A DNA stretch of 64,000 nucleotides from an uncultured delta proteobacterium (GTDB lineage: Bacteria > Desulfobacterota > Binatia > Binatales > Binataceae). Below the pieces are notes generated by a model that was not told the origin of the DNA, ran no database searches, and saw only the letters and a program-made list of their open reading frames with translations. The translations under genes and the position numbers were made by a program. This document shows, in pieces, positions 1-33,950 of this stretch (position 1 is its first letter; each line of letters starts with the position of its first letter). Where the stretch lies: positions 137,815 to 201,814 of the forward strand of contig CAWFAJ010000002.1 in NCBI GenBank assembly GCA_963813785.1. Reading direction: 5' to 3'.

Positions 1-93
1 ACCTTCATGCTTTGCAACGCACTGATCGGACTGGTGTTCCTGCCGCGCGCCAGCCGCGAACTGACCGCGCTCCGCGCCGAGCCCGCCGGCACT

Positions 94-468: not shown

Positions 469-511
469 GGCATTTCAATCATAGCCAAGTTGGCGCTGTC
501 GGGCTACGGCG

Positions 512-4854: not shown

Positions 4855-4861
4855 GCTCGTC

Positions 4862-5389
4862 CTAGAACTCGCGGCCGGCCGGACCGAACTCGACGCCCGG
4901 CTTCCAGTCGGCGGGGCAGAGTTGGCCGGTTCGGAGCGCGCGCACGATTCGAAGCGTCTCGGTCACGCTGCGTCCAACGTTCAGCGGGCATGATGCGGCG
5001 AACACAATCTTGCGTTTCCGATCGAGGATGAACGTCGCACGCAACGCGACTTTTTGCTGGTCGTCGAAAACGCCGTAGGCGCGCGCCAGATTGCCGTCCG
5101 GGTCGGCGAGCAGCGGGTAGCCGATTCCGCCGAGTTCGCGGGCCCATCGCAGATGGCTGTCCACGTCGTCGATACTGACGCCCACGATCGCCGTCTGCTC
5201 GGCGGTAAACTCCTTCAGCGCCTTGTTGAAGCCCGTGACTTCGGTGGGACAGATGAAAGAAAAGTCGCGCGGATAGAAAAAGAGCAGAACCAAATCGGAA
5301 GAAATTTTCGCGAGACTTGTGCGTGCGATACGCCCATCAAGGGCGCAGTCAAGATCGAACGACGGTGCGGGATCACCAGGCTTCAGCAT
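4862..5389 (-). CDS. 2-Cys peroxiredoxin (AhpC/TSA family).
   Basis: Peroxidatic Cys motif FFYPRDFSFICPTE and resolving Cys motif LCPADWKPG. Start chosen at MLKPGDPAPSF with a GAGG RBS; the ORF extends to 5431. Confidence 0.85.
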   Translation of the reverse strand: MLKPGDPAPSFDLDCALDGRIARTSLAKISSDLVLLFFYPRDFSFICPTEVTGFNKALKEFTAEQTAIVGVSIDDVDSHLRWARELGGIGYPLLADPDGNLARAYGVFDDQQKVALRATFILDRKRKIVFAASCPLNVGRSVTETLRIVRALRTGQLCPADWKPGVEFGPAGREF

Positions 5390-5433
5390 CGCGGCCTCAA
5401 GTGCACGCTTGGTCGATAGCGCAAAAGCCAAAC

Positions 5434-6168
5434 CTACTCAATCTCGAAGGTGAGAGAAACCGTCGCCGACACGGTGACCTCGCCGGGTTCGACCGGTGTG
5501 GACACGCTGGCCGACATCGCCATTGCCCTCCCCATCAGTACCGGAATCGGCCGCGCTTGCGATACTGTCGTCGCCTTGAGGACCTTGCCGAGCTTCACCC
5601 CCAGCGCAGAGGCGAGCGCTTCGGCTTGTGCGCGGGCGTCGCGAGTTGCGATCGCGATCGCTTCGGTACGCGCCTTGGTGTCGTCCTTGACGCTGAAGTT
5701 AAGCGAGTTGACGCGATTTGCGCCGGCCGCAATCGCGGAATCGATGAGTGGGCCAACGAGGTCGAGCGCGCCGGTATTTACGGTAACGGTATTTTGAGCG
5801 TTGTAGCCGATAATCCTGGGCTTCTCGCTCGCACGCTGGTCGTACTCGGGATTGAGCGAATAGCCGCCGGTTGTAATCTTGCCCTTGCCGCCGAGCTTCG
5901 ACTTGAGCGCGTCGATCACCTTCGCGGCCAGCGCGGCGTTGCGGTTCGCCGCTTCCTCGGCCGTCTTCGCTTCAGTCTCGATTGCGATATCCAAATCCGC
6001 GGTGTCGGGAGATGTGCGCGTCTGGCCGCTGCCGTCAACTTCAATGGTCCGCGCGGCGGGAGTATTCGCACCGCTGTCCGCCCACGCCGCGGGAGCGAAC
6101 ACCGTGGTTACGATCGCAAGTGCAAGGCCGACGGCGATTGCTCGGGGTCTCAGCTTCATGGCTTTCAT
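5434..6168 (-). CDS. SIMPL-domain (DUF541) periplasmic protein with a signal peptide.
   Basis: MKAMKLRPRAIAVGLALAIVTTVFAPAAWA signal, then SIMPL-like repeats. Start ATG at 6168 from codon walking. Confidence 0.75.
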   Translation of the reverse strand: MKAMKLRPRAIAVGLALAIVTTVFAPAAWADSGANTPAARTIEVDGSGQTRTSPDTADLDIAIETEAKTAEEAANRNAALAAKVIDALKSKLGGKGKITTGGYSLNPEYDQRASEKPRIIGYNAQNTVTVNTGALDLVGPLIDSAIAAGANRVNSLNFSVKDDTKARTEAIAIATRDARAQAEALASALGVKLGKVLKATTVSQARPIPVLMGRAMAMSASVSTPVEPGEVTVSATVSLTFEIE

Positions 6169-6258
6169 CTCGGGCGCGCTCCGGAATAAGTTGATTCGCG
6201 CTGATTTTATCCGGAGACTGTACCAGTTGACGATAATCACAATCGTCACGCAAGACGA

Positions 6259-7732
6259 ATGGCGGAAAAACAAGCAAAACAAAATGACAAGAAGGTAACC
6301 CCTCGCACCGAGGACTTTGCCGCGTGGTACAACGACATCTGCATCCGCGCGGAGCTGGCGGACTACTCGCCGGTGCGCGGATGCATCGTGTTTCGTCCCG
6401 ACGGCTTTGCCATTTGGGAGGTGCTGCGCGACGAGCTCGACAAGCGCATCAAGAAGACCGGCGCTCGCAACGCGTACTTTCCGCTGTTCATCCCGCAGAG
6501 CTTTCTGCAGAAAGAGGCGCAACACGTCGAGGGATTCGCGCCCGAGCTTGCGGTCGTTACCCACGGCGGGGGCAAGGAGCTCGAAGAGCCGCTAATCGTG
6601 CGTCCCACCTCCGAGACGATCATCAACCATATGTTCGCGCAGTGGATCAGGTCGCATCGCGATTTGCCGATGATGCTCAATCAATGGTGCAACGTTGTGC
6701 GCTGGGAGATGCGCACGCGTTTGTTCCTGCGCACCACCGAGTTCCTCTGGCAGGAGGGGCATACGGCGCACGCCACGCGCGAAGAAGCCGAACGCGAAAC
6801 GCTCACGATGCTCGAAGTGTATCGGCAGTTCGTCGAGGAATTCCTGGCGATTCCGCTGATAGTAGGACGCAAGAGCGCGGCCGAGCGATTCCCGGGCGCC
6901 GTCGAGACCTATTCGATCGAAGGCATGATGGGCGACGGGCGCGCGCTGCAATGCGGCACGTCGCATTTTCTCGGCCAGAACTTCGCGAAGCCGTTCGAGA
7001 TCCGCTTCCTCGACGATCAAAATCAGATGCAGTTCGTGTGGCAGACGAGCTGGGGTGTATCGACGCGGCTGCTCGGCGCGATCGTGATGGCGCACGGCGA
7101 CGACCAGGGACTGCGGCTGCCGCCAACGGTCGCATCGACGCAAGCAGTCGTCGTGCCCATATTTCGCAAACCCGAGGAGGGCGAAAAAGTGCTCGCCGCA
7201 GCCCGCGGCGCGCTGGAATCGCTGACGCAGGCGGGAATCCGCGCGCGCATCGACGATCGCGAAGGACTGACGCCGGGTTTCAAGTTCAACGACTGGGAGA
7301 TGCGCGGTGTGCCGGTGAGAATCGAAATCGGACCGCGCGACGTTGCCTCGGGCGAAGCAGTACTCGCGCGGCGCGACAAGTCGGGGCAGGAGTCGAAGAG
7401 CAAGGCATCGCTCGCGACGATCGGCGATGCGGTCGGCGCGCTGCTGGGCGAGATTCAGAAAAATCTTTACGCGCAGGCAAAGGCCGCGATGATCGCGAAT
7501 ACGCGAAAGTTCGACGACTACGCCGAGTTTCGCAAGCACATGGAGGGCGAAGGCGGCGGTGGATTCGCCGACGTCTATTGGTGCGGGAATCCAGTGTGCG
7601 AGACGCGGATTCGCGAGGAGACCAAGGCGACTTGCCGCGCAATTCCACTCACGCAATGACGGCGTCGCGGGCAAGTGCATCGTATGCGGCGAGTCGGCGG
7701 CCGAGCGCGCATATTTCGCCAAGGCGTACTGA
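6259..7732 (+). CDS. proS: Prolyl-tRNA synthetase, archaeal/eukaryotic type. It carries an apparent +1 frameshift near 7657. The frame as given stops at TGA 7657-7659. Removing one base restores the conserved Zn-ribbon tail DGVAGKCIVCGESAAERAYFAKAY, ending at TGA 7730-7732.
   Basis: Strong class II ProRS similarity through 7656. CGNPVC and CIVC cysteine pairs lie on opposite sides of the frameshift. The restored C-terminus ends in the conserved Tyr. Confidence 0.85.
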
Positions 7733-7782: not shown

Positions 7783-7907
7783 GGGTGCAGGGGGTCACCC
7801 CTGGCCGTTGGCACGGCTGGCCAGTATTAAGCCGTTGGCAGGGGCCGCGCGCGACAACGGAGCGCGGCCTTAACGGTGGGTGCAGGGTCAGCCTGCTCAC
7901 CCCTGCA
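7783..7907. repeat. REP/MITE-like palindromic element, copy 1 (GGGTGCAGGGGGTCACCCCTG ... CACCCCTGCA), between the convergent proS and trpS.
   Basis: The internal segment GCCGTTGGCACGGCTGGCCAGTATTAAG matches the reverse complement of 23086-23113. Hairpin-forming ends are shared with the elements at 23.0, 33.1-33.26 and 34.02 kb. Confidence 0.6.
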
Positions 7908-11273: not shown

Positions 11274-12971
11274 ATGCTGCTCGAACTGCACATCCGCAAT
11301 TTCGCGATAATCGAGGAAGCTAATCTCGAGTTCGGCGCAGGCCTCAACGTGCTTTCCGGCGAGACGGGCGCCGGCAAAACCATCATCCTGAGCGCGCTCG
11401 GATTGCTGCTCGGCTCACGCGCGTCGCCCGATATGATTCGCACCGGCGAGAAAGAGGCAGTCGTCGAGGGACGTTTCGAGCTCGAGGGCGAGGCCGCGAT
11501 GCCTGAACCGGCCGGGCGCAAGCACGACGGCGAGCGCCGCGAGCTGATCGTGCGCAGAGTGATCGCTGACGGCGGTGGGCGCTCGCGCGTGACGATCGAC
11601 GGCGAACTCGCCACCGTGCAAAGCCTCGGCAAAATAGGCGCGTCGCTGGTTCAGGTTTATGGACAGCACGAGCAGCATTCGTTGCTCCGTGCCGAGAGCC
11701 ATCGCGAGACTCTCGATCGTTACGCGAACCTCGATGACGAACTCGCGTCCTATCGCGATCGCTACGCGCGCGCGCAAGACATCCAGTCCCGCCTTCACGA
11801 ACTAAACCGCCGCGAACATGAACGCGCGGATTTGCTGGAGCTCGCAAGGTTCCGCGTGAGCGAACTCGAGCGCGCCGGGCTGGCTGCCGGCGAAGATGAC
11901 GCGCTATCGCGCGAGCGAATCGTGCTCTCCAACGCAAGCAAGCTCGCCACCGCCGCGCTCGAGGCCGAGCAGGCGCTCTATGGCGCCGACGGCGCGGCGA
12001 CGGATACGGTTGCGCGAGCCGAGGCGCGATTGGTCGATGCGGCTGCGCTCGATCCGAAGCTTGGCGATGCGCTCGAGATGATCAAGTCGGCCCGCGCGAA
12101 CCTCGAAGAAGCGGCGCGCACGCTCGGAGCGTATGCGTCCAGGATCGAGGCGGATCCCGCGCGTCTGGAGGAAATCGACAACCGCCTTCAGGAACTGACG
12201 CGGCTCAAGCGCAAATACGGCGGGTCAATCGATAGCGCCATCGAGACGTTGGAGCGATCGCGGGCCGAGATTGGCGAGCTCGAAGGAATCGGCGAGTCGA
12301 AAGCTCAAGTCGAAGCCGCGATGGCGGCGGCGCTCGACGAACTCACCGAGCATGCAAATCGACTGTCCTCGATTCGCCAGCGCGCTGCCGCCGAGCTCGG
12401 CCGCAAGATGGAAGCCGAATTGAGGACGCTCGGGATGCGCTCGCCGGGTTTCGAGGCGCGGCTCGGCGCGCTCGTCCCGGACGAAGCCGGCTTCGTGCAT
12501 GCCGGCGTTGCACTCGGTCCGTTCGGCGTCGATACGATCGAGTTTCATCTGTCGCCGAATGTCGGCCAGCCTGCGATGCCGCTGCTAAGAATCGCCTCGG
12601 GCGGCGAGCTTTCGCGCGTGATGCTCGCGCTCAAGCGCCTCGAGGCGCAGCGCCGCGGAGTTGCCACGATGATTTTCGACGAAGTGGACGCGGGAATCGG
12701 CGGCGCAGTTGCCCAGGTGGTTGGCCGCAAACTGAAACAACTCTCGCACTTTCATCAGATTTTGTGTGTCACGCACCTGGCGCAGATCGCGGCCTTCGCG
12801 GACCGTCATCTCACCGTCGAGAAAGAAGAGCGGCGCGGCTCGACTCGCAGCCGTGTGGCGGTTCTGGAACCCGGCGATCGCACCGAGGAGATCGCTCGCA
12901 TGCTCGGCGGCGAAGTATCCGACAAATTCCGCCGCGCTGCCCGCGAACTGCTCGATCGCGCCCGGGAATGA
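11274..12971 (+). CDS. recN: DNA repair protein RecN (SMC-like ATPase).
   Basis: 565 aa with an N-terminal Walker A (GETGAGKT), coiled-coil middle and C-terminal signature. Conserved nadK-recN pair. Confidence 0.9.
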   Translation: MLLELHIRNFAIIEEANLEFGAGLNVLSGETGAGKTIILSALGLLLGSRASPDMIRTGEKEAVVEGRFELEGEAAMPEPAGRKHDGERRELIVRRVIADGGGRSRVTIDGELATVQSLGKIGASLVQVYGQHEQHSLLRAESHRETLDRYANLDDELASYRDRYARAQDIQSRLHELNRREHERADLLELARFRVSELERAGLAAGEDDALSRERIVLSNASKLATAALEAEQALYGADGAATDTVARAEARLVDAAALDPKLGDALEMIKSARANLEEAARTLGAYASRIEADPARLEEIDNRLQELTRLKRKYGGSIDSAIETLERSRAEIGELEGIGESKAQVEAAMAAALDELTEHANRLSSIRQRAAAELGRKMEAELRTLGMRSPGFEARLGALVPDEAGFVHAGVALGPFGVDTIEFHLSPNVGQPAMPLLRIASGGELSRVMLALKRLEAQRRGVATMIFDEVDAGIGGAVAQVVGRKLKQLSHFHQILCVTHLAQIAAFADRHLTVEKEERRGSTRSRVAVLEPGDRTEEIARMLGGEVSDKFRRAARELLDRARE

Positions 12972-21730: not shown

Positions 21731-23005
21731 ATGGGAGATGACCGATTGATGCCGAAGAAACCGCAAATGCTGGAAGGCTACCGGGTTCTGGATTTCACGC
21801 AATTCGTCGCAGGGCCGACCTGCACGCGAATCCTCGCTGAGATGGGCGCTGAAGTAATCAAGGTGGAACTCGCGCCTTACGGCGACCGCATCCGCTCCGA
21901 AGGGCTCAAGTCGCTCGCGCCTGAATTCAAGAAGTCGAGCCACAGCACCTACTATCTGCAGCACAACCACTCAAAGCTGAGCTTTGCGATCGATCTCAAA
22001 AAGCCCGGAGCGCGCGAGATCGTGATGTCGATGATTCCGCAGGTCGACGTGGTAGTTGAAAATTTCGCGCCGCGGGTGATCGACCGGCTCGGATTTGCCT
22101 ACAAGGACATCAAGGCAGTCAATCCGAAAATCATCATGTGCTCGATTTCGATGGCGGGGCAGACCGGACCGCTGTCGGTCAAGGCCGGCTACGATTTTAT
22201 CGGCCAGGCCTATGCGGGGATTACCGACGGCATCGGGCAGGCCGATGGGCCGCCCGCGCTGACGACAATGGCAATCGGTGACGTTTCAACCGGGGTCGCC
22301 GCCGCGATGGCTGTCGGCTTCGCGCTGTTGCATCGCGAGCGCACGGGAGAAGGCCAGTATCTCGACGCGTCGCTGCTGGATACCTACTTCCACATGCACG
22401 AGAAGACCGTGCCGATCGTGTCGTTGCGCGGCGACAAATTTCGACCGACGCGAACCGGTTCGATCCATCCCGACGGCGGCACCACCGGCATTTTTCATTT
22501 CCGTGGCGATCAATACATTCTGATTACATCGACGCCGCATCAATGGCCGCAGCTGGTGCGGGCGCTCGGGATGCCTGAATTGGCGGCCGACCCGCGCTTC
22601 AAGGATCCTCGCGGGCGGCGCGACAACAAGGAACAACTGAGAGACGTGATCGAGAAATGGCTCACACGCTTTCCGACCCGCGACGACGCGATCGCCGCGC
22701 TGGATGCTGAACGCGTGCCGTGTGCTCCGGTGCTGACGGTCAACGAAGCCATCAAGCATCCGCATCTCAACGAGCGCAAGACGGTTCGCTGGGTGGAGGA
22801 TCCGATTTTGGGCAAGGTGGCGATTCCGGGTGTGCCGGTGAAGTTTTCGGCATGGCCGGACCGGACAGAGGTGCGTTCGTCGAGACTGGGCGAGGACAAC
22901 GAGCGCATACTGCGCGAACTGCTAAAGATGCCGGCGGAGCGGATTGCCAAGCTCTACGCCGAAGGAATCCTGGTCCGCGATTCGACGCTCGAAAGGCAGG
23001 GGTGA
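21731..23005 (+). CDS. CaiB/BaiF family III CoA-transferase.
   Basis: 424 aa with family-III CoA-transferase hallmarks (YRVLDFTQFVAGPTCTRILAEMGAEVIKVE). Confidence 0.85.
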   Translation: MGDDRLMPKKPQMLEGYRVLDFTQFVAGPTCTRILAEMGAEVIKVELAPYGDRIRSEGLKSLAPEFKKSSHSTYYLQHNHSKLSFAIDLKKPGAREIVMSMIPQVDVVVENFAPRVIDRLGFAYKDIKAVNPKIIMCSISMAGQTGPLSVKAGYDFIGQAYAGITDGIGQADGPPALTTMAIGDVSTGVAAAMAVGFALLHRERTGEGQYLDASLLDTYFHMHEKTVPIVSLRGDKFRPTRTGSIHPDGGTTGIFHFRGDQYILITSTPHQWPQLVRALGMPELAADPRFKDPRGRRDNKEQLRDVIEKWLTRFPTRDDAIAALDAERVPCAPVLTVNEAIKHPHLNERKTVRWVEDPILGKVAIPGVPVKFSAWPDRTEVRSSRLGEDNERILRELLKMPAERIAKLYAEGILVRDSTLERQG

Positions 23006-23140
23006 CCGCAGGGGTGACCCCTGCACCCGGTATTAAGGCCGCGCTCCGGTGGCGGCGCGCGGCCCGTGCCGCGGGTGCACGGTGTCTTAATACTGGCCAG
23101 CCGTGCCAACGGTCAGGAGTGACCCGTGCACCTTAGCGTG
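23003..23140. repeat. REP/MITE-like palindromic element, copy 2, inverted relative to copy 1.
   Basis: GGGGTGACCGCAGGGGTGACCCCTGCACCC ... CTTAATACTGGCCAGCCGTGCCAACGG ... GAGTGACCCGTGCACC. The internal 28-mer is the reverse complement of 7809-7836. Confidence 0.6.
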
Positions 23141-23206
23141 CAGGCATGTCGGTCAGCAGCCCGCATTCGAGCGGCGGCGTAAGGATAGTTGCGGCGCGCT
23201 GGAAAG

Positions 23207-23683
23207 CCCTTTGGACTTAAAATTTTCAGTAGGGCAACCACCGTGCGGGTTCGAGTCCCGCCCCCGGCATTTGAGGGAGTTCGTCGCCGCCCTTTGTCAT
23301 TTCGCGGCTTTGCCCTTTCCCTTCATTTGAACCGTCTGCATCTCACTCGGTTCGAGGTTGTCGGAGATCGTCAGAGTTCCTGTGTACGACACCGCTTGGG
23401 TCGGCGCGAACTGTACCGCGACCTCGCAGAAGGTCTCGGTCTTCGGCACTCCTTTTCCGCCCGGCTGCAACTCAACGTCGGAGCACTGCGTCGAGACCGA
23501 AAACGGCGACGGCGCCGGCGTTCCACTCGCGCTTTCTATCTCGATCAGTATCGGCAGCGGATGATTGGTCTTCTTGATTTTGCCGGCGTTAGTCACTTTC
23601 ACCATCTTGATCTTCGATTGATTCACGGTGACGGTGCCGAAGTTCAGTTTTTTCGGAGAAACCTTGAGCTTGCCCGCGACCGC
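23207..23683. repeat. Direct repeat block A (about 475 bp, near-identical to 28207-28678). It contains a tRNA-like 3' fragment (23227-23269, GGGTTCGAGTCCCGCCCCCGGCA) and the 3' end of a surface-protein gene.
   Basis: The ORF-track proteins 23189..23791 and 28239..28841 are identical over more than 150 aa. A single SNP is visible (ctcggtcttc vs ctcgctcttc). Confidence 0.85.
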
Positions 23684-25300
23684 CGTTGGTGTCGCGGTTG
23701 GGGTTGCGGTGACAGTTGGTGTTGCCGTCGCAGTCGGTGTCGCGGTCTTGGTCGCCGTTGCGGTCGCGGATGCGGTCGGGGTCGCCGTTGATGATGCTGT
23801 CGCGGTCGGTGTTGCGCTGGCCGTTGACGTAGCGGTCTTGGTCGCCGTTGCAGTCGCGGATGGGGTCGGCGTCACCGATGCGGTCGCGGTGGCAGTCTTG
23901 GTTGCTGTGGCAGTGGCGGTCGCAGTTGGAGGTCGGGGTCGGTGTTGCGCTTTGAGTGCGTCGGCGTTGCATTGCTGAGGCTGTCGGAGTCGCCGTCGCG
24001 GTTGCAGTTACGGTCGCGGTGGGGGTGGCTGTTGCAGTTGCTTTGGGGACATTATAGCAACAGGCCTCTCTCACAGTCTGGCTTTCGGGCCCGCAATCTC
24101 GACTACTGGCGACGCATCTCCTTTGCTGCCCGAAGCGAATTCCATGATGCTGTCGTCGGGCTAGTTCGAGGCGATGTTTGTCACATATATGTTCTCTGCC
24201 GAATCAACCGCTATTCCAGAGGGCCAGTAGAGGCCTGTGTGTGGCCCACCTATGACGGCGCTCGGCGAGATATTGCCGGTCTGTAAGGCCGGAAACTCCA
24301 GTATTTCTTGGTTACTCAAAACGTACACAGTTCCGCTGCTACGAGCTGCCACCGCCATCGGACCGTTCAACTGGGTATTCGACCCTGCGATTGTCCTATC
24401 AGGGCTCCTCCGTCTAGCGTCGATATTCAGTGATCGCGTTGGCGTCACGGTTCGCGACGTACACGACCCCCGTCGCATCGATCGCGGCTCCAAAGCCTGA
24501 GAATCCAGTGCTCACCGTCGCGACAGGCGATGTGTTACGGCCTGTCCCGCGGCAAACTTCAAAAGATCGCAGGGGGATCGGGAATAGACAGTCCAGACGT
24601 TGTCGGAACTGTCCAAGACAATTCCGCGCGGGACGGCCAGTGACGTGTTCGGACCGAGATCGTTAGTGATGGCCCAATGTCGCCTGCCGAGTCTTTCGGA
24701 AACTCCAAGATAGACCTGGCGCCCCGGGTATGTCGGTTACGAAAATATTGCCATGGCTGTCCAAGGCAATTCCTCCGAGATTAATACAGAGGTTAGTGTA
24801 CAGCACAGCGATATACGCACTAGGTGACGCATCTACAGCACTACCCGGCAAACTTTGCTATACAGAGAGCCGAACGATCAGAGGACTGACAGGCAACGTA
24901 AACGTCGGATGACGCTGTGAGTGAGGGAAGTACACCGGTACCGTACAGGTGAAAGATATGCGGGCTGTACGGGGCGTCATCCGTAAACGTGAGGTAAGCG
25001 TTATAAAGCTGACCGCTGGAGGCTGAAAAGACACAGACATGGAGCAGCTTGCCACGGGGACGAGAGCTGCGACGGTGCAACGTCGTTGATAGAAAAGGCG
25101 GAGGGGTCCGCGCACACAGAGAGCAACTACGGCCACGTGAACATCAGCGTAGACACTGCTGTACACCACGACGGACACGGGAGCTGTAGGACTGCAGACA
25201 TCTTGCGAGCAGAAATAGAGGCTCGGAGGCAAGAATGAGAGCTGCGGGCAGGCTACCGTGGTGAAGCTCTGATAGCTGTCGCACGACAGCATCCCGCCGG
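23297..25300 (-). pseudogene. Degenerate remnant of an NHL-repeat surface-protein paralog. It has an intact C-terminal Ig-like domain plus a Thr/Pro/Ala linker, then fragmented NHL repeats (YVTNIASN, GNIFVTDIPG) in several frames.
   Basis: ORFs 23297..23875, 23589..24074, 24161..24493 and 24663..24851 are all fragments with homology to the 28293-31585 gene. GC declines progressively. Confidence 0.5.
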
Positions 25301-25502
25301 CATTCGCACATATCTAGAAATGGTACTCGGAATTGCAGGCAAGCCCGGTCAACGAATATGACACGGATACGGTGTTGTTGAACGGAGAGAGCGTGGCTAC
25401 AGTTCCTGTGGTAGTGCCGTAATACATAGAGAGTACGTAATAGAAGTTAACCGTCGACTGCGAGCCATTTGGATTAACGGTGCTGTTTAGTTGTACTAAG
25501 TT

Positions 25503-26080
25503 CTAGGTGATAGAGCTGGCAGGATATGTTACGACGGTTGCGGTGCAGGGCGGGGTAGTGAAGCTTTCATCGTCGTCGCAAAGCGTTCCGCCCCCATTAG
25601 TTGCACAAACTTCGAAATGGTACACTGTGTTGCACGAAGACCGCTGACAGATGTAGAGACGGTAATAGTCGTCGTGCAGACTGCAAAAGGACCTATGGTG
25701 CTCGTCGTGGTCCCATAAGCGGTGGTCTGGCCGTAATTGAAGTACACGGTAGTTTGCGAACCGTTCGGATTTACATCGCCACTTAGTCGCGCGCTGTTTT
25801 GCGTGACCAAATCTGTAGGTTTGGTGTAGACAACGGCTGAGGGCTGAGAGCAGGAAAGGGTAGAAAAACTCTGGTCGCCGTCGCAGGCTGTCCCACTTGC
25901 ATTCGTTGCACAAACGTCGAAGTGATACGTCGTGAAGCAGGTAAGAAGCGATAGAGGTGGCGGGGTAGATCGTTGTAGTGCCTACAGCGAAGGGTACGAT
26001 GGTGCGAGTAGAGCTGCCATAGGTCGTTGTCTGGCAGTAATAGAAGTAGACGGTGGTCTGTGACCCAAAGGGAAAACAGA
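25503..26080 (-). pseudogene. Degenerate tandem Ig/Fn3-like surface-protein repeats (motif VNPNGSQTTVYFNYGQTTAYGTTTST), lower GC and not in a continuous frame.
   Basis: Two tandem units of about 250 bp are visible in the DNA. ORF fragments 25529..25810 and 25503..25913. Confidence 0.4.
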
Positions 26081-26759
26081 GGAGAAAAATAGGGAGGCAT
26101 ATAGGATAAAAAAATAAGCTGAATATGAGGAGACAACTGGAAGAGGTAGGAAAGATAATAAGGTAAAAGACAGTACAACGCTAAGAGGGCTAAAAGTAGA
26201 GTTGTAGCTGAAGAGCAAGGTAGAGACAATGCTGAAGAGAGTAGAAGGCTGAAACGTTAGAGAAGTAGAAACTAAGGCTAAGAGAAAGAGTTGCTAAGGT
26301 ACAGATATAGGTATAGATAAAATCTACAGCACTAAAGAAGGATATGCTAAAAGAGGTTATAGACAGATAGGAGGAGAATGGATAGCTAAAGATCACTGTA
26401 TGAGGTGAGACAGAGACTAAGACCGGCTAGGGTGAGAAGATCACAGTTAGAGGGTAGAACGATAAGATGGGTAAGGAGAGTATAAAGTAAAGGTAAAGCT
26501 GTAAGAGGTCTGTAGGTAGGGATAGCTAAAAGACAAGCTACAGGGCAAAGCAACGCTGAGATCGTTGAATACATACTGAAGCTCAGTATCGGAGACGAAA
26601 GACAGTTTGCTCTGTTTGCTTGGGAAGGGGGTGCCTTCCGGATCGATGAAGGTGAGAGACGCAACATTCTGGAAGTTATACACATAGACGGTAAATAGCT
26701 GATCACTATTGGAGGCGGGTAAGATGAAGGTGAGATACTGGTGATAGAAGGGGTGGAGA

Positions 26760-28200
26760 TGATAGGGCTAGGTATCTATGACAAGAAGATTAAGATAAAA
26801 GAGAAAAGAGGAAAGATAGGATAATATAAATTGAGAGTAAAAAGAGATAGAAGAAGAATAAGAGAGATGGAAGAGAAAGAGATGGTGCTGGAAAAGAAGG
26901 CGATAGATACAGGCAATATGAGAGATGACAAAGAAGAGAGAGAGATAATGAGAAATAAAAAGATAGAGAAAAAAAAAGAAAAATGAAAGAAAAAGAGATA
27001 AGAAGGAAAGAAAGAAAGAGATAAAAAAAGTAAAATAAAATAAAGAAAAAAAAATAGAAAAAAATAAAAAAGAAAAATGAGAAAAATAAAAAAAAAAGAA
27101 AAAATAAAAGAGATAAAAAAAAATATATAGAAAAATAATAAGATAAGAAAAAAAAAAAAAAAATAAAAAAGAAAAAAAATGAATATAAATAAGAAAAAAA
27201 TAAGAAAATAAAATGAGATATAAATGAGAGAAAAAAAATATAAAGAAATATGAATGAGAAAAAAAATAAAATAGAGAAAAATAAATAAAAAAAATAAGAG
27301 ATAAAAAATAAATATAAAAAAAAAGATAAAAAGAAAAAAAAATGAGAAAGATAAAATAAGATAAGAAAGAAAAAATGAAAGAAAAATAATAAAAAAGAAT
27401 AAATGAAAAAAAAAAAAAAGAATTCACGCTAACGACAAATAAAAATAAGAAATAAAAAAAAAAAAAAAAAAAATAAAAGAAATAAAAAAAAAAAATAAAA
27501 AAAAAAAAAAAAAGAATAAATAAAAAAAAAAAGAAAAAAAAAAAAAAAATAAGATAAAAAAAAAAAAGAAAGAAAAAAAGAAAGAATAAGAACGATAAAA
27601 GAGAAAAATAAAAAAAAGAAAGAAAAAAAAAAAAAAAAGAAACAGAAGAAAAAAAGAAGAAAAAGAAGAAAAAAGAAAGAAAAAAAAAGAAAGACAGAAA
27701 AGAGAATGCAAAGAAGAAAGAAAGAAGAAAAAGAAAAAGAAGAAAAGAGAGAACACGAAAAAAAACGAAAGAAAAAAAAAAAAGAGAGAAAAAAAAAGAA
27801 AGAAAAGAAAAAAAAAAAAAAAAAAAAGAGAGACAGAAAAAAAAAAAGAAAGAAAGAAGAAAGAAAAACAGGAGAAGGAAAAAAGAAAAAGAAAGAAAAG
27901 AAAGAAGAAAAAAGAAAAAAGAAAAAAAAAAAGAAAAAAAAAGAAAAAGAAAAAAAAAAGAAAAAAGAGAGGAAAGAAAGAGAAAAAAGAGAGAAAGAGA
28001 GGGAGAAAGAAGAAAGAGAAGAGAAAGAAAAAAAGAAAAAAAAAAAAAAAAAAAGGAAAAAAAGAAAGAGAAGAAAAGAAAAAAGAAAGACAGAGAGGAA
28101 GAAGAAAGAAAAAGAAAAGCTAAAAACAAAAAGAGAAAAGAAACAAACAAAATAAAAGAAAAGAAGAAAAAAAAGCGGAAGAAAACGAGGAGTTATACGC
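26760..28200. repeat. About 1.44-kb A-rich homopurine (A/G) low-complexity tract on the + strand. The 27560-28190 segment is essentially pyrimidine-free. Preceded (about 25950-26760) by an A/G/T-rich zone of decaying complexity.
   Basis: Direct reading: long runs of a and g only, with rare c and sporadic t in the first half. The F/L/S-only ORF 26768..28150 (-) and the K/E/R-only ORF (+) are a trivial consequence of this composition. Confidence 0.9.
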
Positions 28201-28206
28201 AAAAAA

Positions 28207-28678
28207 AAGGACTTAAAATATTCAGTAGGGCAACCACCGTGCGGGTTCGAGTCCCGCCCCCGGCATTTGAGGGAGTTCGTCGCCGCCCTTTGTCATTTCG
28301 CGGCTTTGCCCTTTCCCTTCATTTGAACCGTCTGCATCTCACTCGGTTCGAGGTTGTCGGAGATCGTCAGAGTTCCTGTGTACGACACCGCTTGGGTCGG
28401 CGCGAACTGTACCGCGACCTCGCAGAAGGTCTCGCTCTTCGGCACTCCTTTTCCGCCCGGCTGCAACTCAACGTCGGAGCACTGCGTCGAGACCGAAAAC
28501 GGCGACGGCGCCGGCGTTCCACTCGCGCTTTCTATCTCGATCAGTATCGGCAGCGGATGATTGGTCTTCTTGATTTTGCCGGCGTTAGTCACTTTCACCA
28601 TCTTGATCTTCGATTGATTCACGGTGACGGTGCCGAAGTTCAGTTTTTTCGGAGAAACCTTGAGCTTGCCCGCGACCG
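28207..28678. repeat. Direct repeat block B (partner of 23207-23683), with the tRNA-like 3' fragment at 28223-28265.
   Basis: See block A. Confidence 0.85.
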
Positions 28679-31585
28679 GCGTTGGAGTCGCGGTCGGAGT
28701 AGCGGTGGCAGTTGGAGTTGCAGTCGCGGTTGCTGTGGCTGTCGCGGTTGCTGTGGCTGTCGCGCGTTGCCGACGCGGTTGGCGTCGCGGTCGCCGTTGA
28801 TCGATGCGGTCGCGGTCGGTGTTGCGCTGGCCGTTGAGTAGCGGTCTTGATCGCCTTGGGTCGCAGTCGGTGTCGCGGTCTGGTCGCCGTTGCGGTCGCG
28901 GATGCGGTCGGGGTCGCCGATGCGGTCGCGGTCGGTGTTGCGCTCGCCGTTGATGATGCCGTCGCAGTCGGTGTCGCGGTCTTGGTCGCCGTTGCAGTCG
29001 CGGATGCGGTCGCTGTCACCGTTGCCGATGCGGTCGCGGTCGGTGTTGCGCTCGCCGTTGACGTAGCGGTCTTGGTCGCCGTCGGCGTCGGAGTTGCCGT
29101 CTTGGTCGCAGTTGCCGACGCGGTTGGCGTCGGCGTGAGAGTGGCCGTGCTGGTGGCCGTCGGCGTCGCAGTGACGGTCGGGGTCGGGGTCGCTAGTGGC
29201 CTATCGTATTCGAGCACTCGGCTGTTGTTCTCATCGGCGACGTAGAGGTTGCCGCTGGTATCCACTGCAACCCCGGCGGTTGGGATAGGCTGTCGCCGCT
29301 CAGACCACCGTGGTTGGCGGTGCCCGTGGAGAAGCTGCCACCCTGCCCGAACACGCGTATCGGCGGTGGTGTCGGTCGATGAGCGGGACTGTTGTATTCG
29401 AGCACGCGGTTGTTGCCGTCGTCGGCGACGTAAAGGTTGCCGCTGGCGTCCACTGCTATCCCGCCGGGTGAGGATAGGCTGTCGGCGCTCAGCCCGCCGT
29501 TGTTGGCGGTGCCCGAGGCGAAGTTGCCGCCCTGCCCGAACACCGTATCAGCGGTCGTGTCGGTGGTGAGCGGGGTGTTGTATTCGAGCACGCGGTTGTT
29601 GACGTTGTCTGCCACGTAGAGGTTGCTGCTGGCGTCCACCGCAACCCCGGTGGGTGGAGAGGCTGTCGGCGCTCAGCCCGCCGTTGTTGCGGTCCCGAGA
29701 TGAAGCTGCCGCCCTGCCCGAATACGGTGTCGGCAGTGGTGCCGCTGGTGAGCGGGGTGTTGTATTCGAGCACGCGATTGTTGCCGTTGTCGGCTACGTA
29801 GAGGTTGCTGCTGGCGTCCACCGCAACCCCGGTTGGGAGAATTCAGACTATCTGCGCTCAGCCCGCCCTTGTTGGCAGTATTCGAGGTGAAGCTGCCGCC
29901 CTGCCCGAACACCCGATTGGCGCCCGCACCGACGCATGGGAGTGAACCGCAGCCGGCAAATGGGGTGTTGTATTCGAGCACGCGGCTGTTGTACTGGTCA
30001 GCTACGTAGAGGTTGCCGCTGGCTGTCCACTGCAACCCCTACTGGGAAGCATAGGTTGTTTGCGCTTGCGCTCGAGCCGTTGAATCGCAGTCGCCTGAGT
30101 GAAAGTCGGGCTGACCAATTACCAGGTCGGCCGCACCGCCGTTGGCGAAGGTGGTCACATCTTTGATAGCCGAGCACTCGGCTGTTATTGGTGTCCTCGA
30201 CGTAAAGGCGGTTCGGCGTCGTGCTCGCGTCAATCGCCACGGATTGGGGAGCGAAAAGGCCGCTGGCGTCGATAAAGTTTGCGCCATTGTGGGAAAAGTC
30301 GAGCTGCCCCAGCACTACATCGGCGGTGGTGTCGGTCGAAAGCGGGGTGTTGTATTCCAGCACTCGGACGTTGGGTCCGTCGGCCACGTAAAGGTTGCCG
30401 CTGGCGTCCACCGCAACCCCCACCGGATGGGACAGACTATTCGCACTCAGCCCGCCGTTGTTGGAGGTGTTCGAAGCGAAGCTGCCGCCCTGCCCGAATA
30501 CGGCATCGGCAGTGGTGCCGTTGATGAGCGGGGTGTTGTATTCGAGCACGCGGTTGTTGCCGTTGTCGGCGACATAGAGATTGCCGCTGGCGTCCACCGC
30601 AACCCCAGAGGGATAGCGATAGGCTGTTCGCGCTCAGCCCGCCCTGGTTGGGGGTACTCAAAGTGAAGTCGCCACCCTGCCCGAATACGGTATCGGCGGT
30701 GGTGCCTTTTGTGAGCGGGGTGTCGTATTCGAGCACGCGGTTGTTGGTTTCGTCGGCGACGTAGAGATTTCCGCTGGAGTCGAGTGCAACCTGTTCGGGA
30801 GAGCACAAGCTGTCGGCGCTCGTCCCGCCCTCGTCGCAGGTGCCCGTGGTGAAGTTGCCGCCCTGCCCGAACACCATATCGGCGGTGGTGTCGGTTGAAA
30901 GCGGGGTGTTGTATTCGAGGATGCGGTTGTTGCCGTTGTCGGCTATGTAGAGGTTGCCGCTGGCGTCCACCGCAAGCCCTGCGGGATGGGACAGGCTATC
31001 CGCACTCAGCCCGCCGTTGTTGGAGATGAGCGAAGTGAAACTCCCGGCTTGCCCGAACACCACATTGGCGGAGCCGCCGACACACGGAAATGAACCGCAT
31101 CCGGCGAATGGAGTATTGTATTCGAGCACGCGGTTGTTGCTCTGGTCAGCTACGTAGAGGTTGCCGCTGACGTCCACCGCAAGCCCGGCGGGTTGGGAGA
31201 GGCTTTCCGCACTCACGCCGCCGTTGTCCGAGGCGCCTGAGATGAAGTCGGGCTGTCCAATTACCAGGTCGGCGCCGCCGCCGTTGGTGAAGGTAGTTAC
31301 GTCCTTGTAGCCCAAGACCCGGTTGTTGGCGCCGTCGGCTACGTATAGGCGGTTCGGGGTCGTGCTCGTGTCAATCGCCAGGAATGCGAGACCGTTGAAA
31401 CCTTTGGCGTCGACCAGGTTTGCGATCTTGTGGGAAAAGTCGAACTGACCCAGCACCCGGTCGGCCGTGGTATCGCCCACAGCTCCCACGACCATCGCCG
31501 CGTACAGCGCGACGGTCAGCGTCCCGACTGCAAGACCCAGCACCCTGCGATTCGATGCCTTGGCGCGTACAACTCGGAAATTCAT
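28293..31585 (-). CDS. Very large secreted NHL-repeat (beta-propeller) protein. It has a Thr/Pro/Ala-rich linker and a C-terminal Ig-like (choice-of-anchor-D/ASH-like) domain. The frame is interrupted at least 5 times (near 29230, 29560, 29750, 30020 and 30520), so it is either a pseudogene or has repeat-induced assembly errors.
   Basis: Signal peptide MNFRVVRAKASNRRVLGLAVGTLTVALYA with a GGGAGG RBS. Repeats of about 61 aa (NNRVLEYNTPL.TDTTAD.VFGQGG.F....N.GGLSADSLS.P.G.AVDASGNLYVAD) with a 183-bp DNA period. Consecutive ORF-track fragments 30437..31585, 29998..30597, 29673..30035, 29489..29821, 29193..29639, 28585..29265 and 28293..28622. Confidence 0.7.
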
Positions 31586-32103
31586 CGGTCCTGCCTCCCG
31601 AACCGGGAATGGCCGCTAAATCAGCGCAAGCACGGTAAGCCGACACTAATCGCATGAAACCAGTCACAAGGCAAACCGGCGCCGCAGCGTGAGCCGCTTG
31701 GTTCAGCCAGAAAAAAGAGGGGGCCGGCCTTGTATACGCGTCGTCGGCCAACGCAGGCCGTTGCGCCTGCAAACCGACCTGTTAGGCCCTTTGACCAATC
31801 GGATGCCCTTCAAAACTTACACATAAACTTGCACATTTCCAGATGACTAAAGAATTAAAACCAATAATTTCATATGAGTTAAAGATAAACTTAAGGGACT
31901 TAAGACCGGGCGCGCACTTCGCATTTGCCCAATGCCCGGCGCCGGTGCTAATCCGATTCAGGATTGAAAATGGAAATTCCGGATGAATCAAGTTCAGAGA
32001 CTTATCCGGGTGAACTGCGCGTAGCTCTTAGTGCGCGATAGAGCGCCGCTGGACCGATGCGGCGCTGAGCAGGATCGATAATCGTGAAAGGACCGGACGC
32101 GCC

Positions 32104-33027
32104 GTGACATCGCTCGCGAGCGCATACACGCCATCGCCAGAGTGGAGCGCGTTTCGCGACTACCCCGGCAATCCGCTGATCGAACCGCACTGGCCCGAGT
32201 GGATCATCGCGGACCCGACGGTGCTTTCTCCGGAGGTGACGCCGGACGGGCGCTGGCACTTGTTCGCGAACGGGCTTAGGGGGATCTACCACTTCACGAG
32301 CGCGGACGGCTTGACCTGGACGCGCGGGAGCCACGCTCTGTTCGGCGGGATGCGGCCGTGCGTACGGCGCGTCGGCGACCGCTTTCTGCTCTTCTACGAG
32401 CACTACCTGAGCTTGCGCCGCTCGGTCGTGGAGCTGCGCACGTCAAGCGACCTGGTCTCGTGGAGCGCGCCCCGCATCGTTCTCGAGCCCTCGCTGGCGT
32501 GGGAGGGCCGAATGCCGGCGGCGACCGGCAACCCGTGCCTCGTCGAGGGGCGATCGGCCTTCATTCTGTACTACAGCGCCGCCGCGGTCTTCCTCAGGGA
32601 TTGCATGTTCATCGAGCCGCGTTACGTGGGCGTGGCCGAGGGCGACTCGCCGGAGGGGCCGTTTCGCAAGCGCGCGCAGCCGATCCTGTCGCCCTCGCGC
32701 GACGATCCGTATCGCAACCTCGGTGCGGGCGCGATCAAGGTCTTCCGCGACGGCGACGGCTTCGTGGGCCTCCAGAACGGGATCTACCGGGACGCCACGG
32801 GCGCGACCGGCTCGGCGATCCTGCTGCTGGCGTCGGCGGACGGCTTCGCATGGACGCAAGTGGATCCTGAGCCGATCATCAGGCCGGAAGGGAGCGGGTG
32901 GAAGCGCGCGTTCGTCTATCAGCTCGACGTCGCGCGCAGCGGCCGAGAGCTACGCCTTTACTACAACGCCCGGAGCGGCTGGTTCCTCGGCGCCGAGAGG
33001 ATCGGCGTGGCGATCGCGTCGACATAG
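32104..33027 (+). CDS. Five-bladed beta-propeller glycoside-hydrolase-like protein (GH43/GH130/DUF377-like).
   Basis: Motifs DPTVL, GRWHLFANG and YHFTSADGLTW suggest the GH43-like propeller superfamily. Assignment by memory only. Confidence 0.5.
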   Translation: MTSLASAYTPSPEWSAFRDYPGNPLIEPHWPEWIIADPTVLSPEVTPDGRWHLFANGLRGIYHFTSADGLTWTRGSHALFGGMRPCVRRVGDRFLLFYEHYLSLRRSVVELRTSSDLVSWSAPRIVLEPSLAWEGRMPAATGNPCLVEGRSAFILYYSAAAVFLRDCMFIEPRYVGVAEGDSPEGPFRKRAQPILSPSRDDPYRNLGAGAIKVFRDGDGFVGLQNGIYRDATGATGSAILLLASADGFAWTQVDPEPIIRPEGSGWKRAFVYQLDVARSGRELRLYYNARSGWFLGAERIGVAIAST

Positions 33028-33129
33028 TCGCGCTGCCCGGTCGCGGTCCGTAGCTGCGTCATCGGCCCATTTCGCGCCGGTAAGAGCTATGCGCAAGGAG
33101 TCCTAGTCCGCGATCCGACACTCGAAAGG

Positions 33130-33256
33130 CAGGGGTGACCCCTGCACCCAATGTTAAGACCGCCCGCCGTTGGCGGGCGCGGCATGAAGGAAGAATCACC
33201 TGCGCGGTGGGCGGCAGGGGCTGCAGCCCCTGCACCCGCAGTGAGAAGACGCGATG
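33130..33256. repeat. REP/MITE-like element, copy 3. Left hairpin GCAGGGGTGACCCCTGCACCC, right hairpin GGCAGGGGCTGCAGCCCCTGCACCCGCAGTGAGAAGACGCG.
   Basis: Perfect palindromes CAGGGGTGACCCCTG and CAGGGGCTGCAGCCCCTG. The right 40-mer recurs at 34018-34058. Confidence 0.6.
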
Positions 33257-33299
33257 GAAGAGTCGCGGGCGGGAAAGGGGCGCTAGAGGCGTTGAACTC

Positions 33300-33950
33300 C
33301 TAGAGGCGGACTTCGGTGAGGCCGCGGACGGAATTGCCGAGAAAAATGCGATCGGCCGACGCAAGGTCCGCCACCGTCAGCACGCATTCACGCGTGGGAA
33401 TCGCCTGACTATCGAGCATCCATTTTCGCAGCGTGCCGTCCAGCAGCCCGCATTCGAGCGGCGGCGTAAGGATAGCCGCACCGCGCTGAATAAACACGTT
33501 GGTGCGCGCGCCTTCGGTAACTTCGGCGCGTTCGTTGACGAAGATTACGTCGAAGCATCCGGTGCGCGCCGACCAGGTCCTAAGCTCGGAGTCGTACAAG
33601 GCGCGCCGGGTCGTCTTATGGCGCAAGATAGGATCCGCGCTCGAAACCGCAATGGCGGAAATCACCGCGCGTGGGATAGGTTCCTTGTGACCGGGTGGTT
33701 CGATTGGGGCAGCGGATACCGATAGCATACCGTCCGGCGCCAGTCTCAGTCGAATTTTCCAGAACGGCTCGGCGGACAGGTTACCAGCGGATCCTAGCAG
33801 GGTGCGGGTGACCTCGCCCAAGTCACACGGGAAACCCAAGCATCCCGCCGACGACGCGAGGCGCCGCAAATGGTATTGCAGGAGCATATAGCCGGACGAC
33901 CTCGTCCAGAGCATGCTTTCAATCAGGCTGAATTCCACGTCTGTGGCCAT
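33300..33950 (-). CDS. pabC: Aminodeoxychorismate lyase (class IV aminotransferase fold).
   Basis: 216-aa class-IV aminotransferase-like protein immediately downstream of the fused pabAB. Confidence 0.7.
   Translation of the reverse strand: MATDVEFSLIESMLWTRSSGYMLLQYHLRRLASSAGCLGFPCDLGEVTRTLLGSAGNLSAEPFWKIRLRLAPDGMLSVSAAPIEPPGHKEPIPRAVISAIAVSSADPILRHKTTRRALYDSELRTWSARTGCFDVIFVNERAEVTEGARTNVFIQRGAAILTPPLECGLLDGTLRKWMLDSQAIPTRECVLTVADLASADRIFLGNSVRGLTEVRL

What the first reader, a model, noticed from the sequence alone, without database searches (positions are those of the whole stretch)
25950..28200. About 1.4-kb near-pure A/G homopurine tract, with graded loss of sequence complexity, inside a 65-70% GC genome
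From about 26760 to 28200 the + strand is almost exclusively A and G. It is A-dominant, and 27560-28190 has only a handful of C/T. Approaching the tract, complexity falls stepwise: normal-GC coding to about 24100, then about 50% GC frameshifted coding to about 26080, then A/G/T-rich, then A/G-only. High-GC sequence resumes abruptly at the tRNA-like fragment (28223). Such a long homopurine-homopyrimidine mirror tract (H-DNA/triplex-prone, a polymerase-slippage hotspot) is extraordinary for a bacterial chromosome. It could be a genuine structural or contingency element downstream of the NHL-protein gene, or a library/assembly artefact. Either way it needs resolving, because it dictates whether the two 475-bp direct repeats are real.
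Basis: seen in the sequence. Interest (0 to 1): 0.75.

Follow-up and report, generated by a model that had tools for sequence, protein, structure and literature searches.

The report
Sequencing artefact: genes overwritten with A
The 1.4-kb A/G tract is not a real homopurine element: it is ordinary protein-coding DNA of a soil bacterium (Candidatus Binatus) whose C, T and finally G letters were progressively replaced by "A" in this one assembly, almost certainly a sequencing or base-calling artefact.

Summary
The tract is in the window as described: 26760-28200 is 90% purine and 73% A, and it ends abruptly near 28208. It is not a biological feature.

- **Uncorrupted counterpart.** An independent contig from another sample (L086, ENA ERZ25039467 contig_56864) carries the same locus intact. 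It has a large fn3/ASH/beta-propeller surface-protein gene, a PGAP1-like lipase gene, a short intergenic stretch, then the repeat R and the NHL gene.
- **Position-by-position match.** The window aligns colinearly with this contig through the whole "graded" zone and the tract.
- **Unnatural differences.** Almost all differences are X>A. C>A starts near 24000 and rises sharply from about 24800, T>A starts near 26000, and G>A near 26800. There are also deletions of C or T. Reference A is kept 94-100% of the time, insertions are almost absent, and transitions are rare.
- **Context dependence.** The loss depends on the neighbouring bases, as base-caller errors do.
- **Clean surroundings.** Flanks and the downstream NHL gene differ from sister contigs with a normal, transition-rich spectrum.
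- **Strain variation.** A 99.5%-identical contig (contig_34516) lacks the whole 5-kb unit, so the unit is probably strain-variable and thinly covered.

The two ~487-bp direct repeats are probably real: they are the shared C-terminal domain and 3' flank of two paralogous genes.

Verdict: not a real feature; low interest except as a quality flag on a public record.

The parts
23213..23700 (.). Direct repeat R, copy 1. It contains the 10-nt junction motif GGACTTAAAA, a degenerate tRNA-like remnant (about 23222-23269), and on the - strand the C-terminal ASH/HYDIN-type Ig-like domain of gene 1 (ORF end 23297).
   Evidence: about 487 bp with 2 mismatches to 28209-28697. Cep192_D4/ASH/HYDIN Ig-like hits, below the Pfam cut-offs; tRNA model scores 18 bits against a gathering score of 47.
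23701..24050 (-). Thr/Pro/Ala-rich linker of gene 1. It is still essentially uncorrupted.
   Evidence: The alignment to L086rc starts at 23868.
24008..25040 (-). SBBP/NHL beta-propeller part of gene 1, lightly corrupted. Roughly 3-20% of C is lost over most of this stretch, rising to about 25-35% from about 24700. Single C/T deletions break the frame.
   Evidence: SBBP/NHL hits; mapping to L086 genes and the list of deletions; loss per 100 nt.
25001..27162 (-). Counterpart of the intact 751-aa ORF P0001 of L086 (ASH-like Ig domain and three fn3-like 'VNPNG...YG' repeats). Corruption rises along the + strand: C>A about 20%, then about 65%, then 100%. T>A starts near 26000 and G>A near 26800.
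   Evidence: P0001 is 80% identical to the stitched translation; the same frame, with G>V, N>Y and D>Y type changes..
26800..28208 (+). The A-rich 'homopurine' tract proper: real sequence almost fully overwritten by A. T is partly kept up to about 27550, and G is partly kept after about 27800.
   Evidence: with A treated as a wildcard, the alignment to the true counterpart scores 40, against -110 +/- 15 for shuffles and -118 and -70 for unrelated DNA.
27185..27929 (-). Counterpart of the 305-aa PGAP1-like lipase/esterase gene of L086 (P0121). It is unreadable in the window.
   Evidence: gene table and Pfam hits for L086; coordinate mapping. P0121.
27930..28208. Counterpart of the intergenic region upstream of the lipase gene. 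The correspondence is position-preserving with at most one indel. Nearly all C and T read as A, and G is kept 85-100% of the time.
   Evidence: side-by-side view and offset test..
28209..28697 (.). Direct repeat R, copy 2. Clean sequence resumes here.
   Evidence: Contig_34516 carries exactly this variant of the 109-aa C-terminal ORF.
28293..31585 (-). Gene 2, an NHL-repeat surface protein ending in the same C-terminal domain. It is broken into about 7 ORFs, but its differences from sister contigs have a normal mutational spectrum.
31888..31897 (.). GGACTTAAGA, the third copy of the junction motif, at the right end of the 8.7-kb segment that is absent from relatives L001 and L004.

Best explanation
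**What it is.** The tract is a data artefact. The organism (a Candidatus Binatus strain from a soil or peat metagenome) really carries a strain-variable unit of about 5 kb at this position. The unit holds a large secreted fn3/ASH/beta-propeller protein gene and a PGAP1-like lipase gene. It sits between two copies of a ~487-bp repeat R. R is the shared C-terminal domain and 3' flank of this gene and of the neighbouring NHL gene.

**What happened to it.** In this assembly the unit was written from very poor evidence. The result is a strand-specific mis-read that depends on the neighbouring bases.
- C reads as A or is dropped.
- Then T reads as A or is dropped.
- Then G does the same.
- True A is never altered.
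- By 26800-28208 almost every letter is A.

**Shown.** The tract is colinear with normal genes in an independent contig. The substitution spectrum is unnatural. The loss depends on sequence context. The unit is absent from a near-identical strain.

**Inferred.**
- The source was probably one low-quality long read, most likely nanopore.
- The unit could not be polished because the other reads in the sample come from the variant that lacks it.
- Clean sequence returns at 28209 because R copy 2 and everything after it are shared with that dominant variant, so they are well covered.
For: 1. **An intact counterpart exists.**: L086rc (ERZ25039467 contig_56864) aligns 1-3084 to window 23868-26920 and 4452-6328 to window 28035-29830. 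It therefore holds gene 1, the lipase gene, R and the NHL gene in the same order as the window.
2. **Nearly all differences are to-A changes.**
   - C>A, T>A and G>A appear in that order along the + strand.
   - Reference A is kept 94-100% of the time, and insertions are almost absent.
   - between 24000 and 26800 there are 171 C>A and 57 T>A. No other class exceeds 16.
3. **Deletions hit the same bases.**: of 21 deletions before 26800, 18 remove only C or T.
4. **Amino-acid changes fit.**: in the same reading frame as P0001, the changes are the ones expected from purine-to-pyrimidine changes on the coding strand (G>V, N>Y, D>Y).
5. **The tract keeps positional information.**: G in the tract sits on G of the real sequence; the alignment scores 40, against -110 +/- 15 for shuffles.
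6. **The loss depends on context.**:
   - C before T is lost 1 time in 49.
   - C before C is lost 35 times in 93.
   - T after T is lost 56% of the time, against 4% after C.

   This is typical of signal or k-mer-based calling.
7. **Surroundings are normal.**: the flanks differ from contig_34516 by about 0.2%, and the NHL gene region differs from contig_34516 and L086, both with transition-rich spectra and no excess of changes to A.
8. **The unit is variable and rare.**
   - contig_34516 is 99.5% identical in the flanks and has only one unit.
   - gene 1 and the lipase have a single close relative in 5.8 billion proteins.
9. **Likely technology.**: the relatives are Microflora Danica contigs, made with nanopore reads, Flye --meta and one round of Medaka (PMC12313526).
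Against: - No reads, quality values or coverage were available. The single-read, unpolished-segment mechanism and the choice of platform are therefore inferences.
- The window's own record could not be fetched. It appears to be a 336,575-bp contig held by NCBI and ENA.
- Only one uncorrupted counterpart (L086) exists, and it comes from a slightly different strain.
- Recovery starts about 35 nt before R copy 2, at about 28175. Coverage from the one-unit variant does not explain that.
- I found no published description of exactly this collapse to A.
Confidence: 0.92

Rival explanations
1. It is a genuine homopurine-homopyrimidine (H-DNA/triplex-prone) or slippage-prone contingency tract upstream of, or between, surface-protein genes.
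For: The composition is extreme: 90-96% purine, with a 221-nt pure purine run. The tract lies next to variable surface-protein genes.
Against: - The tract is colinear, letter by letter, with a lipase gene and the N-terminus of gene 1 in L086.
- There is no repeat unit; TRF matches are only 66-70%.
- There is no mirror symmetry beyond composition.
- It is absent from near-identical strains.
Confidence: 0.01
2. It is real in vivo hypermutation or decay of a pseudogenised, strain-specific locus by a strand-specific mutational process. One example would be oxidative damage giving C>A.
For: C>A is a known 8-oxoG signature on the opposite strand (my own knowledge). The changes are strand-specific and context-dependent. 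Both genes are frameshifted.
Against: - No known process turns C, T and G all into A while leaving A untouched and making almost no transitions.
- Up to 100% of C is replaced within 3 kb, while flanks only a few hundred bases away differ from sister strains by just 0.2%.
- The corruption ends abruptly at a repeat boundary.
Confidence: 0.02
3. It is a non-instrument artefact: software defaulting to 'A' (index 0) where a consensus column has no usable evidence, file corruption, or a deliberately or generatively altered sequence.
For: 'A' is the null symbol in many encodings (my own knowledge). A is never changed, and every failure gives A or a gap. The loss rises in steps near 24800, 26000, 26800 and 27800, which could be coverage or chunk boundaries.
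Against: - Strong dependence on the neighbouring bases is not expected from empty columns or uniform corruption.
- Independent bit loss would give T>G or T>C, and these are nearly absent.
- A language model could not reproduce about 99% of a rare gene that is known from only one other contig.
Confidence: 0.05
4. It is a retro-copy or mobile element with an A-rich tail abutting a target-site duplication (GGACTTAAAA), or junk sequence between two molecules in a chimeric read.
For: The A-rich end abuts a 10-nt motif that also flanks the unit on its other side, and a tRNA-like sequence sits at the opposite end.
Against: - The 'tail' is overwritten coding and intergenic DNA, colinear with L086. L086 has the same GGACTTAAAA at the start of R without any A tail.
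- Gene 1 is on the opposite strand.
- No reverse transcriptase or integrase is present in the unit.
- Random junk would carry no positional signal, yet the tract does.
Confidence: 0.005

Closest known systems
Long-read artefacts: low-quality or 'noise' nanopore reads, and unpolished low-coverage segments in Flye/Medaka metagenome assemblies
   Same: - The errors are strand-specific and k-mer dependent, with deletions rather than insertions.
- They are confined to a strain-variable segment bounded by repeats.
- The relatives come from a nanopore/Flye/Medaka project.
- Spurious nanopore reads are documented (PMC5872496).
   Different: A graded, position-preserving collapse of all bases to A over about 3.4 kb is not described in the papers I could read. 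The platform of this record is inferred, not shown.
H-DNA-forming polypurine-polypyrimidine mirror repeats
   Same: The strand composition is very purine-rich, with a 221-nt pure R-Y run.
   Different: There is no mirror symmetry beyond chance. The tract is a corrupted copy of genes. It is absent from sister strains.
Simple-sequence contingency loci (phase-variable repeats)
   Same: Low-complexity DNA lies next to surface-protein genes.
   Different: There is no defined repeat unit. The tract is 1.4 kb long, whereas contingency repeats span tens of bases. It is not conserved in relatives.
Adenine-directed mutagenesis by diversity-generating retroelements
   Same: A localised, base-specific pattern of changes in a surface-protein gene.
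   Different: The pattern is the opposite. In DGRs adenines are the mutated positions (my own knowledge). Here adenine is the only base that is never changed. No reverse transcriptase or template repeat was seen in the ORFs and domains I examined in the unit.

Membership tests
Sequencing/assembly artefact | The feature is absent from independent assemblies of the same or near-identical organisms. | tested here: met
   Contig_34516 is 99.5% identical in the flanks and lacks the unit. Contig_56864 (L086) has the unit with normal sequence in place of the tract.
Sequencing/assembly artefact | The pattern of differences cannot be produced by evolution, and it is confined to the suspect segment. | tested here: met
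   The differences are almost entirely X>A substitutions and C/T deletions, with A never changed and transitions rare. The flanks and gene 2 show a normal spectrum.
Sequencing/assembly artefact | Coverage collapse, single-read support or low base quality over the segment. | not testable with these tools
   No reads or quality values were available. Indirect hint: gene 1 and the lipase have only one close relative in the protein collection.
H-DNA mirror-repeat homopurine tract | A long uninterrupted homopurine-homopyrimidine run. | tested here: met
   A 221-nt pure purine run lies at 27870-28090. This holds as letters in the file only.
H-DNA mirror-repeat homopurine tract | Mirror symmetry of the tract. 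| tested here: not met
   The longest mirror repeat is 25 nt, against a mean of 30 and a maximum of 49 in composition-matched shuffles.
Simple-sequence contingency locus | A tandem array of a defined short unit at high identity. | tested here: not met
   TRF reports overlapping periods of 4, 7, 16, 17, 22 nt and more, at 66-70% matches with 9-16% indels.
Non-LTR retroelement / retro-copy with poly(A) tail and target-site duplication | An A tail at the 3' end of a transcribed unit, flanked by target-site duplications, with no template for the tail in the source locus. | tested here: not met
   The 'tail' is colinear with coding DNA of L086. The gene lies on the other strand.
tRNA gene / tRNA-derived att site (for the fragment at 23222 and 28218) | A match to tRNA covariance models at or above threshold. 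| tested here: not met
   ARAGORN finds no tRNA there. The best Rfam hit is tRNA-Sec at 18.3 bits, against a gathering score of 47 (E = 0.41).

The most novel reading that the evidence does not exclude
The letters are correct. On this reading, one Binatus strain carries a 3-4-kb stretch in which a strand-specific process in vivo has converted C, T and G to A across a strain-specific surface-protein/lipase unit. The result would be a real poly(dA)-rich homopurine tract.
Probability: 0.01. Interest if true: 0.9.

Novelty: not a real feature. Interest (0 to 1): 0.07.

Why it matters
- **No biology.** There is no new biology here. Nothing about triplex DNA, contingency loci or retroelements should be built on this tract.
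- **Record quality.** About 4 kb (roughly 24.0-28.2 kb of the window) of a contig that appears to be public is corrupted. The contig appears to be 336,575 bp and held by NCBI and ENA. The corruption hides two genes and yields bogus ORFs: a 460-aa Phe/Leu/Ser-rich ORF on the - strand and a 149-aa Lys/Glu-rich ORF on the + strand.
- **Quality screen.** A one-letter-directed substitution spectrum next to a repeat-bounded, strain-variable segment could serve as a cheap signature for screening long-read metagenome assemblies.
- **What is real.** Near-identical Binatus strains carry zero, one or two surface-protein units at this site.

Tried and rejected
- **Degraded copy of the downstream NHL gene.** I tested whether unit 1 is a degraded read of the NHL gene that follows R copy 2. 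It is not: identity drops abruptly right after R, and the domain content differs.
- **Retroelement or SINE-like reading** (tRNA-like head, A tail, 10-nt flanking repeat). Rejected after L086 showed the tail is overwritten genes.
- **tRNA reading of the fragment at 23222/28218.** Neither ARAGORN nor Rfam supports it.
- **Finding the window's own record or an independent assembly of the same strain over the tract.**
  - Exact-protein look-ups for the 424-aa and 418-aa CoA-transferase, the copy-1 C-terminal ORF and the first NHL ORF returned nothing.
  - Eight ORFs from the unit and its surroundings, junk ORFs included, are not in the protein collection under the start codons I tried. The 424-aa CoA-transferase variant is also absent.
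  - Only the 418-aa CoA-transferase is in the collection, on one 336,575-bp contig held by NCBI and ENA.
  - A Logan contig of run ERR11594403 matches the window 100%, but only at 50.8-52.9 kb.
- **JGI metagenome scan with P0001.** It gave only distant domain-level relatives, at most 51% identity.
- **Literature.** Searches found general nanopore error and noise-read papers, but no description of this exact pattern. The Microflora Danica paper has no supplementary tables held as text, so the accessions could not be tied to samples.
- **Two-bit corruption.** Rejected, because T>G and T>C are nearly absent.

Full report
**1. The observation**

The window averages about 61% GC and 51% purine outside the region.

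- Between 26760 and 28200 the + strand is 73% A, 17% G, 7% T and 2% C.
- 27560-28190 is 96.5% purine with 22 pyrimidines.
- The longest pure purine run is 221 nt (27870-28090), against at most 15 nt elsewhere.
- Complexity falls in stages from about 24100, and normal sequence resumes at about 28209.

So the tract is real as letters in the file and far beyond chance. Four details need correcting:

- The genome is not 65-70% GC.
- The first half of the tract (26760-27559) still has 12% T.
- There is no mirror symmetry beyond composition.
- There is no repeat unit: TRF gives only 66-70% matches at many overlapping periods.

**2. The surroundings**

The organism is a Candidatus Binatus (Binatia) from soil or peat metagenomes. 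The adjacent CoA-transferase gene finds 80 Binatus/Binataceae loci, many of them Microflora Danica contigs.

In the closest species representatives (L001, L004) synteny runs straight from window 23222 to 31898. The 8.7 kb in between is therefore an insertion, bounded by the motif GGACTTAA(A/G)A. The motif occurs a third time at 28209.

The segment consists of two units:

- Each unit begins on the + strand with a ~487-bp repeat R (23213-23700 and 28209-28697, 2 mismatches).
- R holds a degenerate tRNA-like remnant that is not a tRNA by ARAGORN or Rfam.
- On the - strand, R also holds the C-terminal ASH/HYDIN-type Ig-like domain of a surface protein.
- Unit 2 encodes an NHL-repeat protein (28293-31585, - strand).
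- Unit 1 encodes a different protein with a TP-rich linker, an SBBP/NHL propeller and fn3-like repeats. Its reading frame is increasingly broken toward the tract.

**3. Independent assemblies**

ENA contig_34516 (L083/L085) is 99.5% identical to the window's flanks. It has only one unit: R plus the NHL gene. It has no gene 1 and no tract.

A homology search with a stitched translation of gene 1 found a single close relative, P0001 (751 aa). P0001 lies on ENA contig_56864 from a third assembly (L086). Read in reverse complement, this 9.8-kb contig carries:

- gene 1;
- a 305-aa PGAP1-like lipase gene;
- 280 bp of intergenic DNA;
- then R, the NHL gene and the right flank.

The order and spacing match the window. 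L086 therefore shows what lies where the window has the tract:

| Window coordinates | Counterpart in L086 |
|---|---|
| about 25001-27162 | N-terminal part of gene 1 |
| about 27185-27929 | lipase gene |
| 27930-28208 | intergenic region |

**4. The nature of the differences**

A global alignment of window 23868-28300 to L086 shows the following:

- The window differs almost only by substitutions to A and by deletions.
- C>A is present at a low level from about 24000 and rises sharply at about 24800. T>A starts at about 26000 and G>A at about 26800.
- Reference A is retained 94-100% of the time throughout.
- Insertions are almost absent, and transitions are rare.
- Between 24000 and 26800 the counts are 171 C>A and 57 T>A. 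No other class exceeds 16.
- Of the 21 deletions before 26800, 18 remove only C or T.
- In protein terms the window keeps the frame of P0001, with changes such as G>V, N>Y and D>Y. These are the changes expected when purines of the coding (-) strand are replaced.

Inside the tract the surviving G's sit on G's of the real sequence. With A treated as a wildcard, the tract aligns to its counterpart with score 40. Shuffled tracts score -110 +/- 15, and unrelated DNA scores -118 and -70.

The loss fluctuates locally, with islands of good sequence at 26600-26700 and 27420-27440. It also depends strongly on neighbouring bases:

- C followed by T is lost 1 time in 49.
- C followed by C is lost 35 times in 93.
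- T after T is lost 56% of the time, against 4% after C.

By contrast, the flanks differ from contig_34516, and the NHL gene region differs from contig_34516 and L086, with ordinary transition-rich spectra and no excess of changes to A. No similar tract exists in 2 Mb of related loci.

**5. Interpretation**

No mutational process is known that turns three bases into A on one strand, leaves A untouched and avoids transitions. Nor could such a process reach 100% replacement within 3 kb of flanks that are 99.8% identical to sister strains. These statements rest on my own knowledge of mutational spectra.

The pattern fits a read-out error:

- It is strand-specific.
- It depends on the k-mer context.
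- It produces deletions but no insertions.
- It fluctuates along the molecule.

The unit is strain-variable: relatives carry zero, one or two units. It is also rare in public data.

The most economical account is that this contig took the unit from one very poor long read, or a few. Polishing could not repair the unit because the remaining reads belong to the variant without it. Clean sequence returns at R copy 2 because that sequence is shared with the dominant variant.

The related contigs come from a nanopore R10.4.1 / Flye --meta / one-round Medaka workflow (PMC12313526). Spurious nanopore reads are documented (PMC5872496). That the window's record was produced the same way is an inference. 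The record appears to be a 336,575-bp contig in NCBI and ENA.

Alternative artefact mechanisms fit the context dependence less well, but only the raw data can exclude them. Examples are a consensus that defaults to 'A' and file corruption.

**6.

- The tract is not a genuine H-DNA or contingency element. The artefact alternative is the right one.
- The '50% GC frameshifted coding' zone is the early stage of the same corruption.
- The two direct repeats do not depend on the tract. L086 independently shows R directly after the gene 1/lipase unit and before the NHL gene. The left junction (flank, then R copy 1, then gene 1) is so far seen only in the window.

**7. Verdict**

Not a real feature. 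Interest is low, apart from flagging a corrupted stretch in a public record and suggesting a simple quality signature. The residual novel reading, true in vivo adenine-directed hypermutation, has about 1% probability.

Noticed in passing
window 23223-31897; L001 10206-10213; L004 about 11511-11518: The whole 8.7-kb segment holding both surface-protein units is absent from the closest species representatives. It is bounded by GGACTTAAAA on the left, the same motif again at 28209, and GGACTTAAGA on the right. The empty site in the relatives reads GCACTCAAAA. Near-identical strains carry zero, one or two units, which suggests insertion at a short repeat followed by gain or loss through recombination between the R copies.
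   Followed up: partly
window 23222-23269 and 28218-28265: A degenerate tRNA-like sequence (T-arm and acceptor-like 3' end) lies just downstream of the stop codon of both surface-protein genes and is part of repeat R. It is far below the tRNA thresholds (18 bits against 47). It also gives a weak YrlA-like hit (17 bits against 69).
   Followed up: partly
window 28293-31585 (- strand): The NHL-repeat gene is split into about 7 overlapping ORFs. It differs by 5-17% per 500 nt from contig_34516, mostly by substitutions with a normal spectrum inside ~185-nt tandem NHL units. This could be repeat-unit shuffling between strains, a pseudogene, or imperfect consensus in repeats. Contig_34516 also has the gene in two pieces.
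   Followed up: partly
window 22954-23201; also 7784-7906, 33087-33183 and 33441-33488: Short GC-rich, partly palindromic intergenic elements recur at several places in the window at 75-92% identity. They look like REP or MITE-type repeats.
   Followed up: no
window 33000-33500, against L083: A cluster of about 50 indel columns relative to contig_34516 lies in the intergenic region between the GH43-like ORF and the aminotransferase gene. It overlaps the REP-like repeats.
   Followed up: no
window 26768-28150 (-), 27429-28202 (-) and 27706-28155 (+): The tract creates long spurious ORFs: 460 aa and 257 aa rich in Phe/Leu/Ser, and 149 aa rich in Lys/Glu. They exist only because the letters needed for stop codons are missing. 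Automatic annotation of the record may report them as proteins.
   Followed up: yes
L086 5450-8646: In the uncorrupted contig the 305-aa PGAP1-like ORF and the 751-aa ORF P0001 are only 24 nt apart. The N-terminus of P0001 also looks, by eye, like the remainder of a lipase/esterase domain. Gene 1 may therefore be one protein of about 1,600 aa (lipase, Ig, fn3, propeller) split by a frameshift in that low-coverage contig.
   Followed up: no
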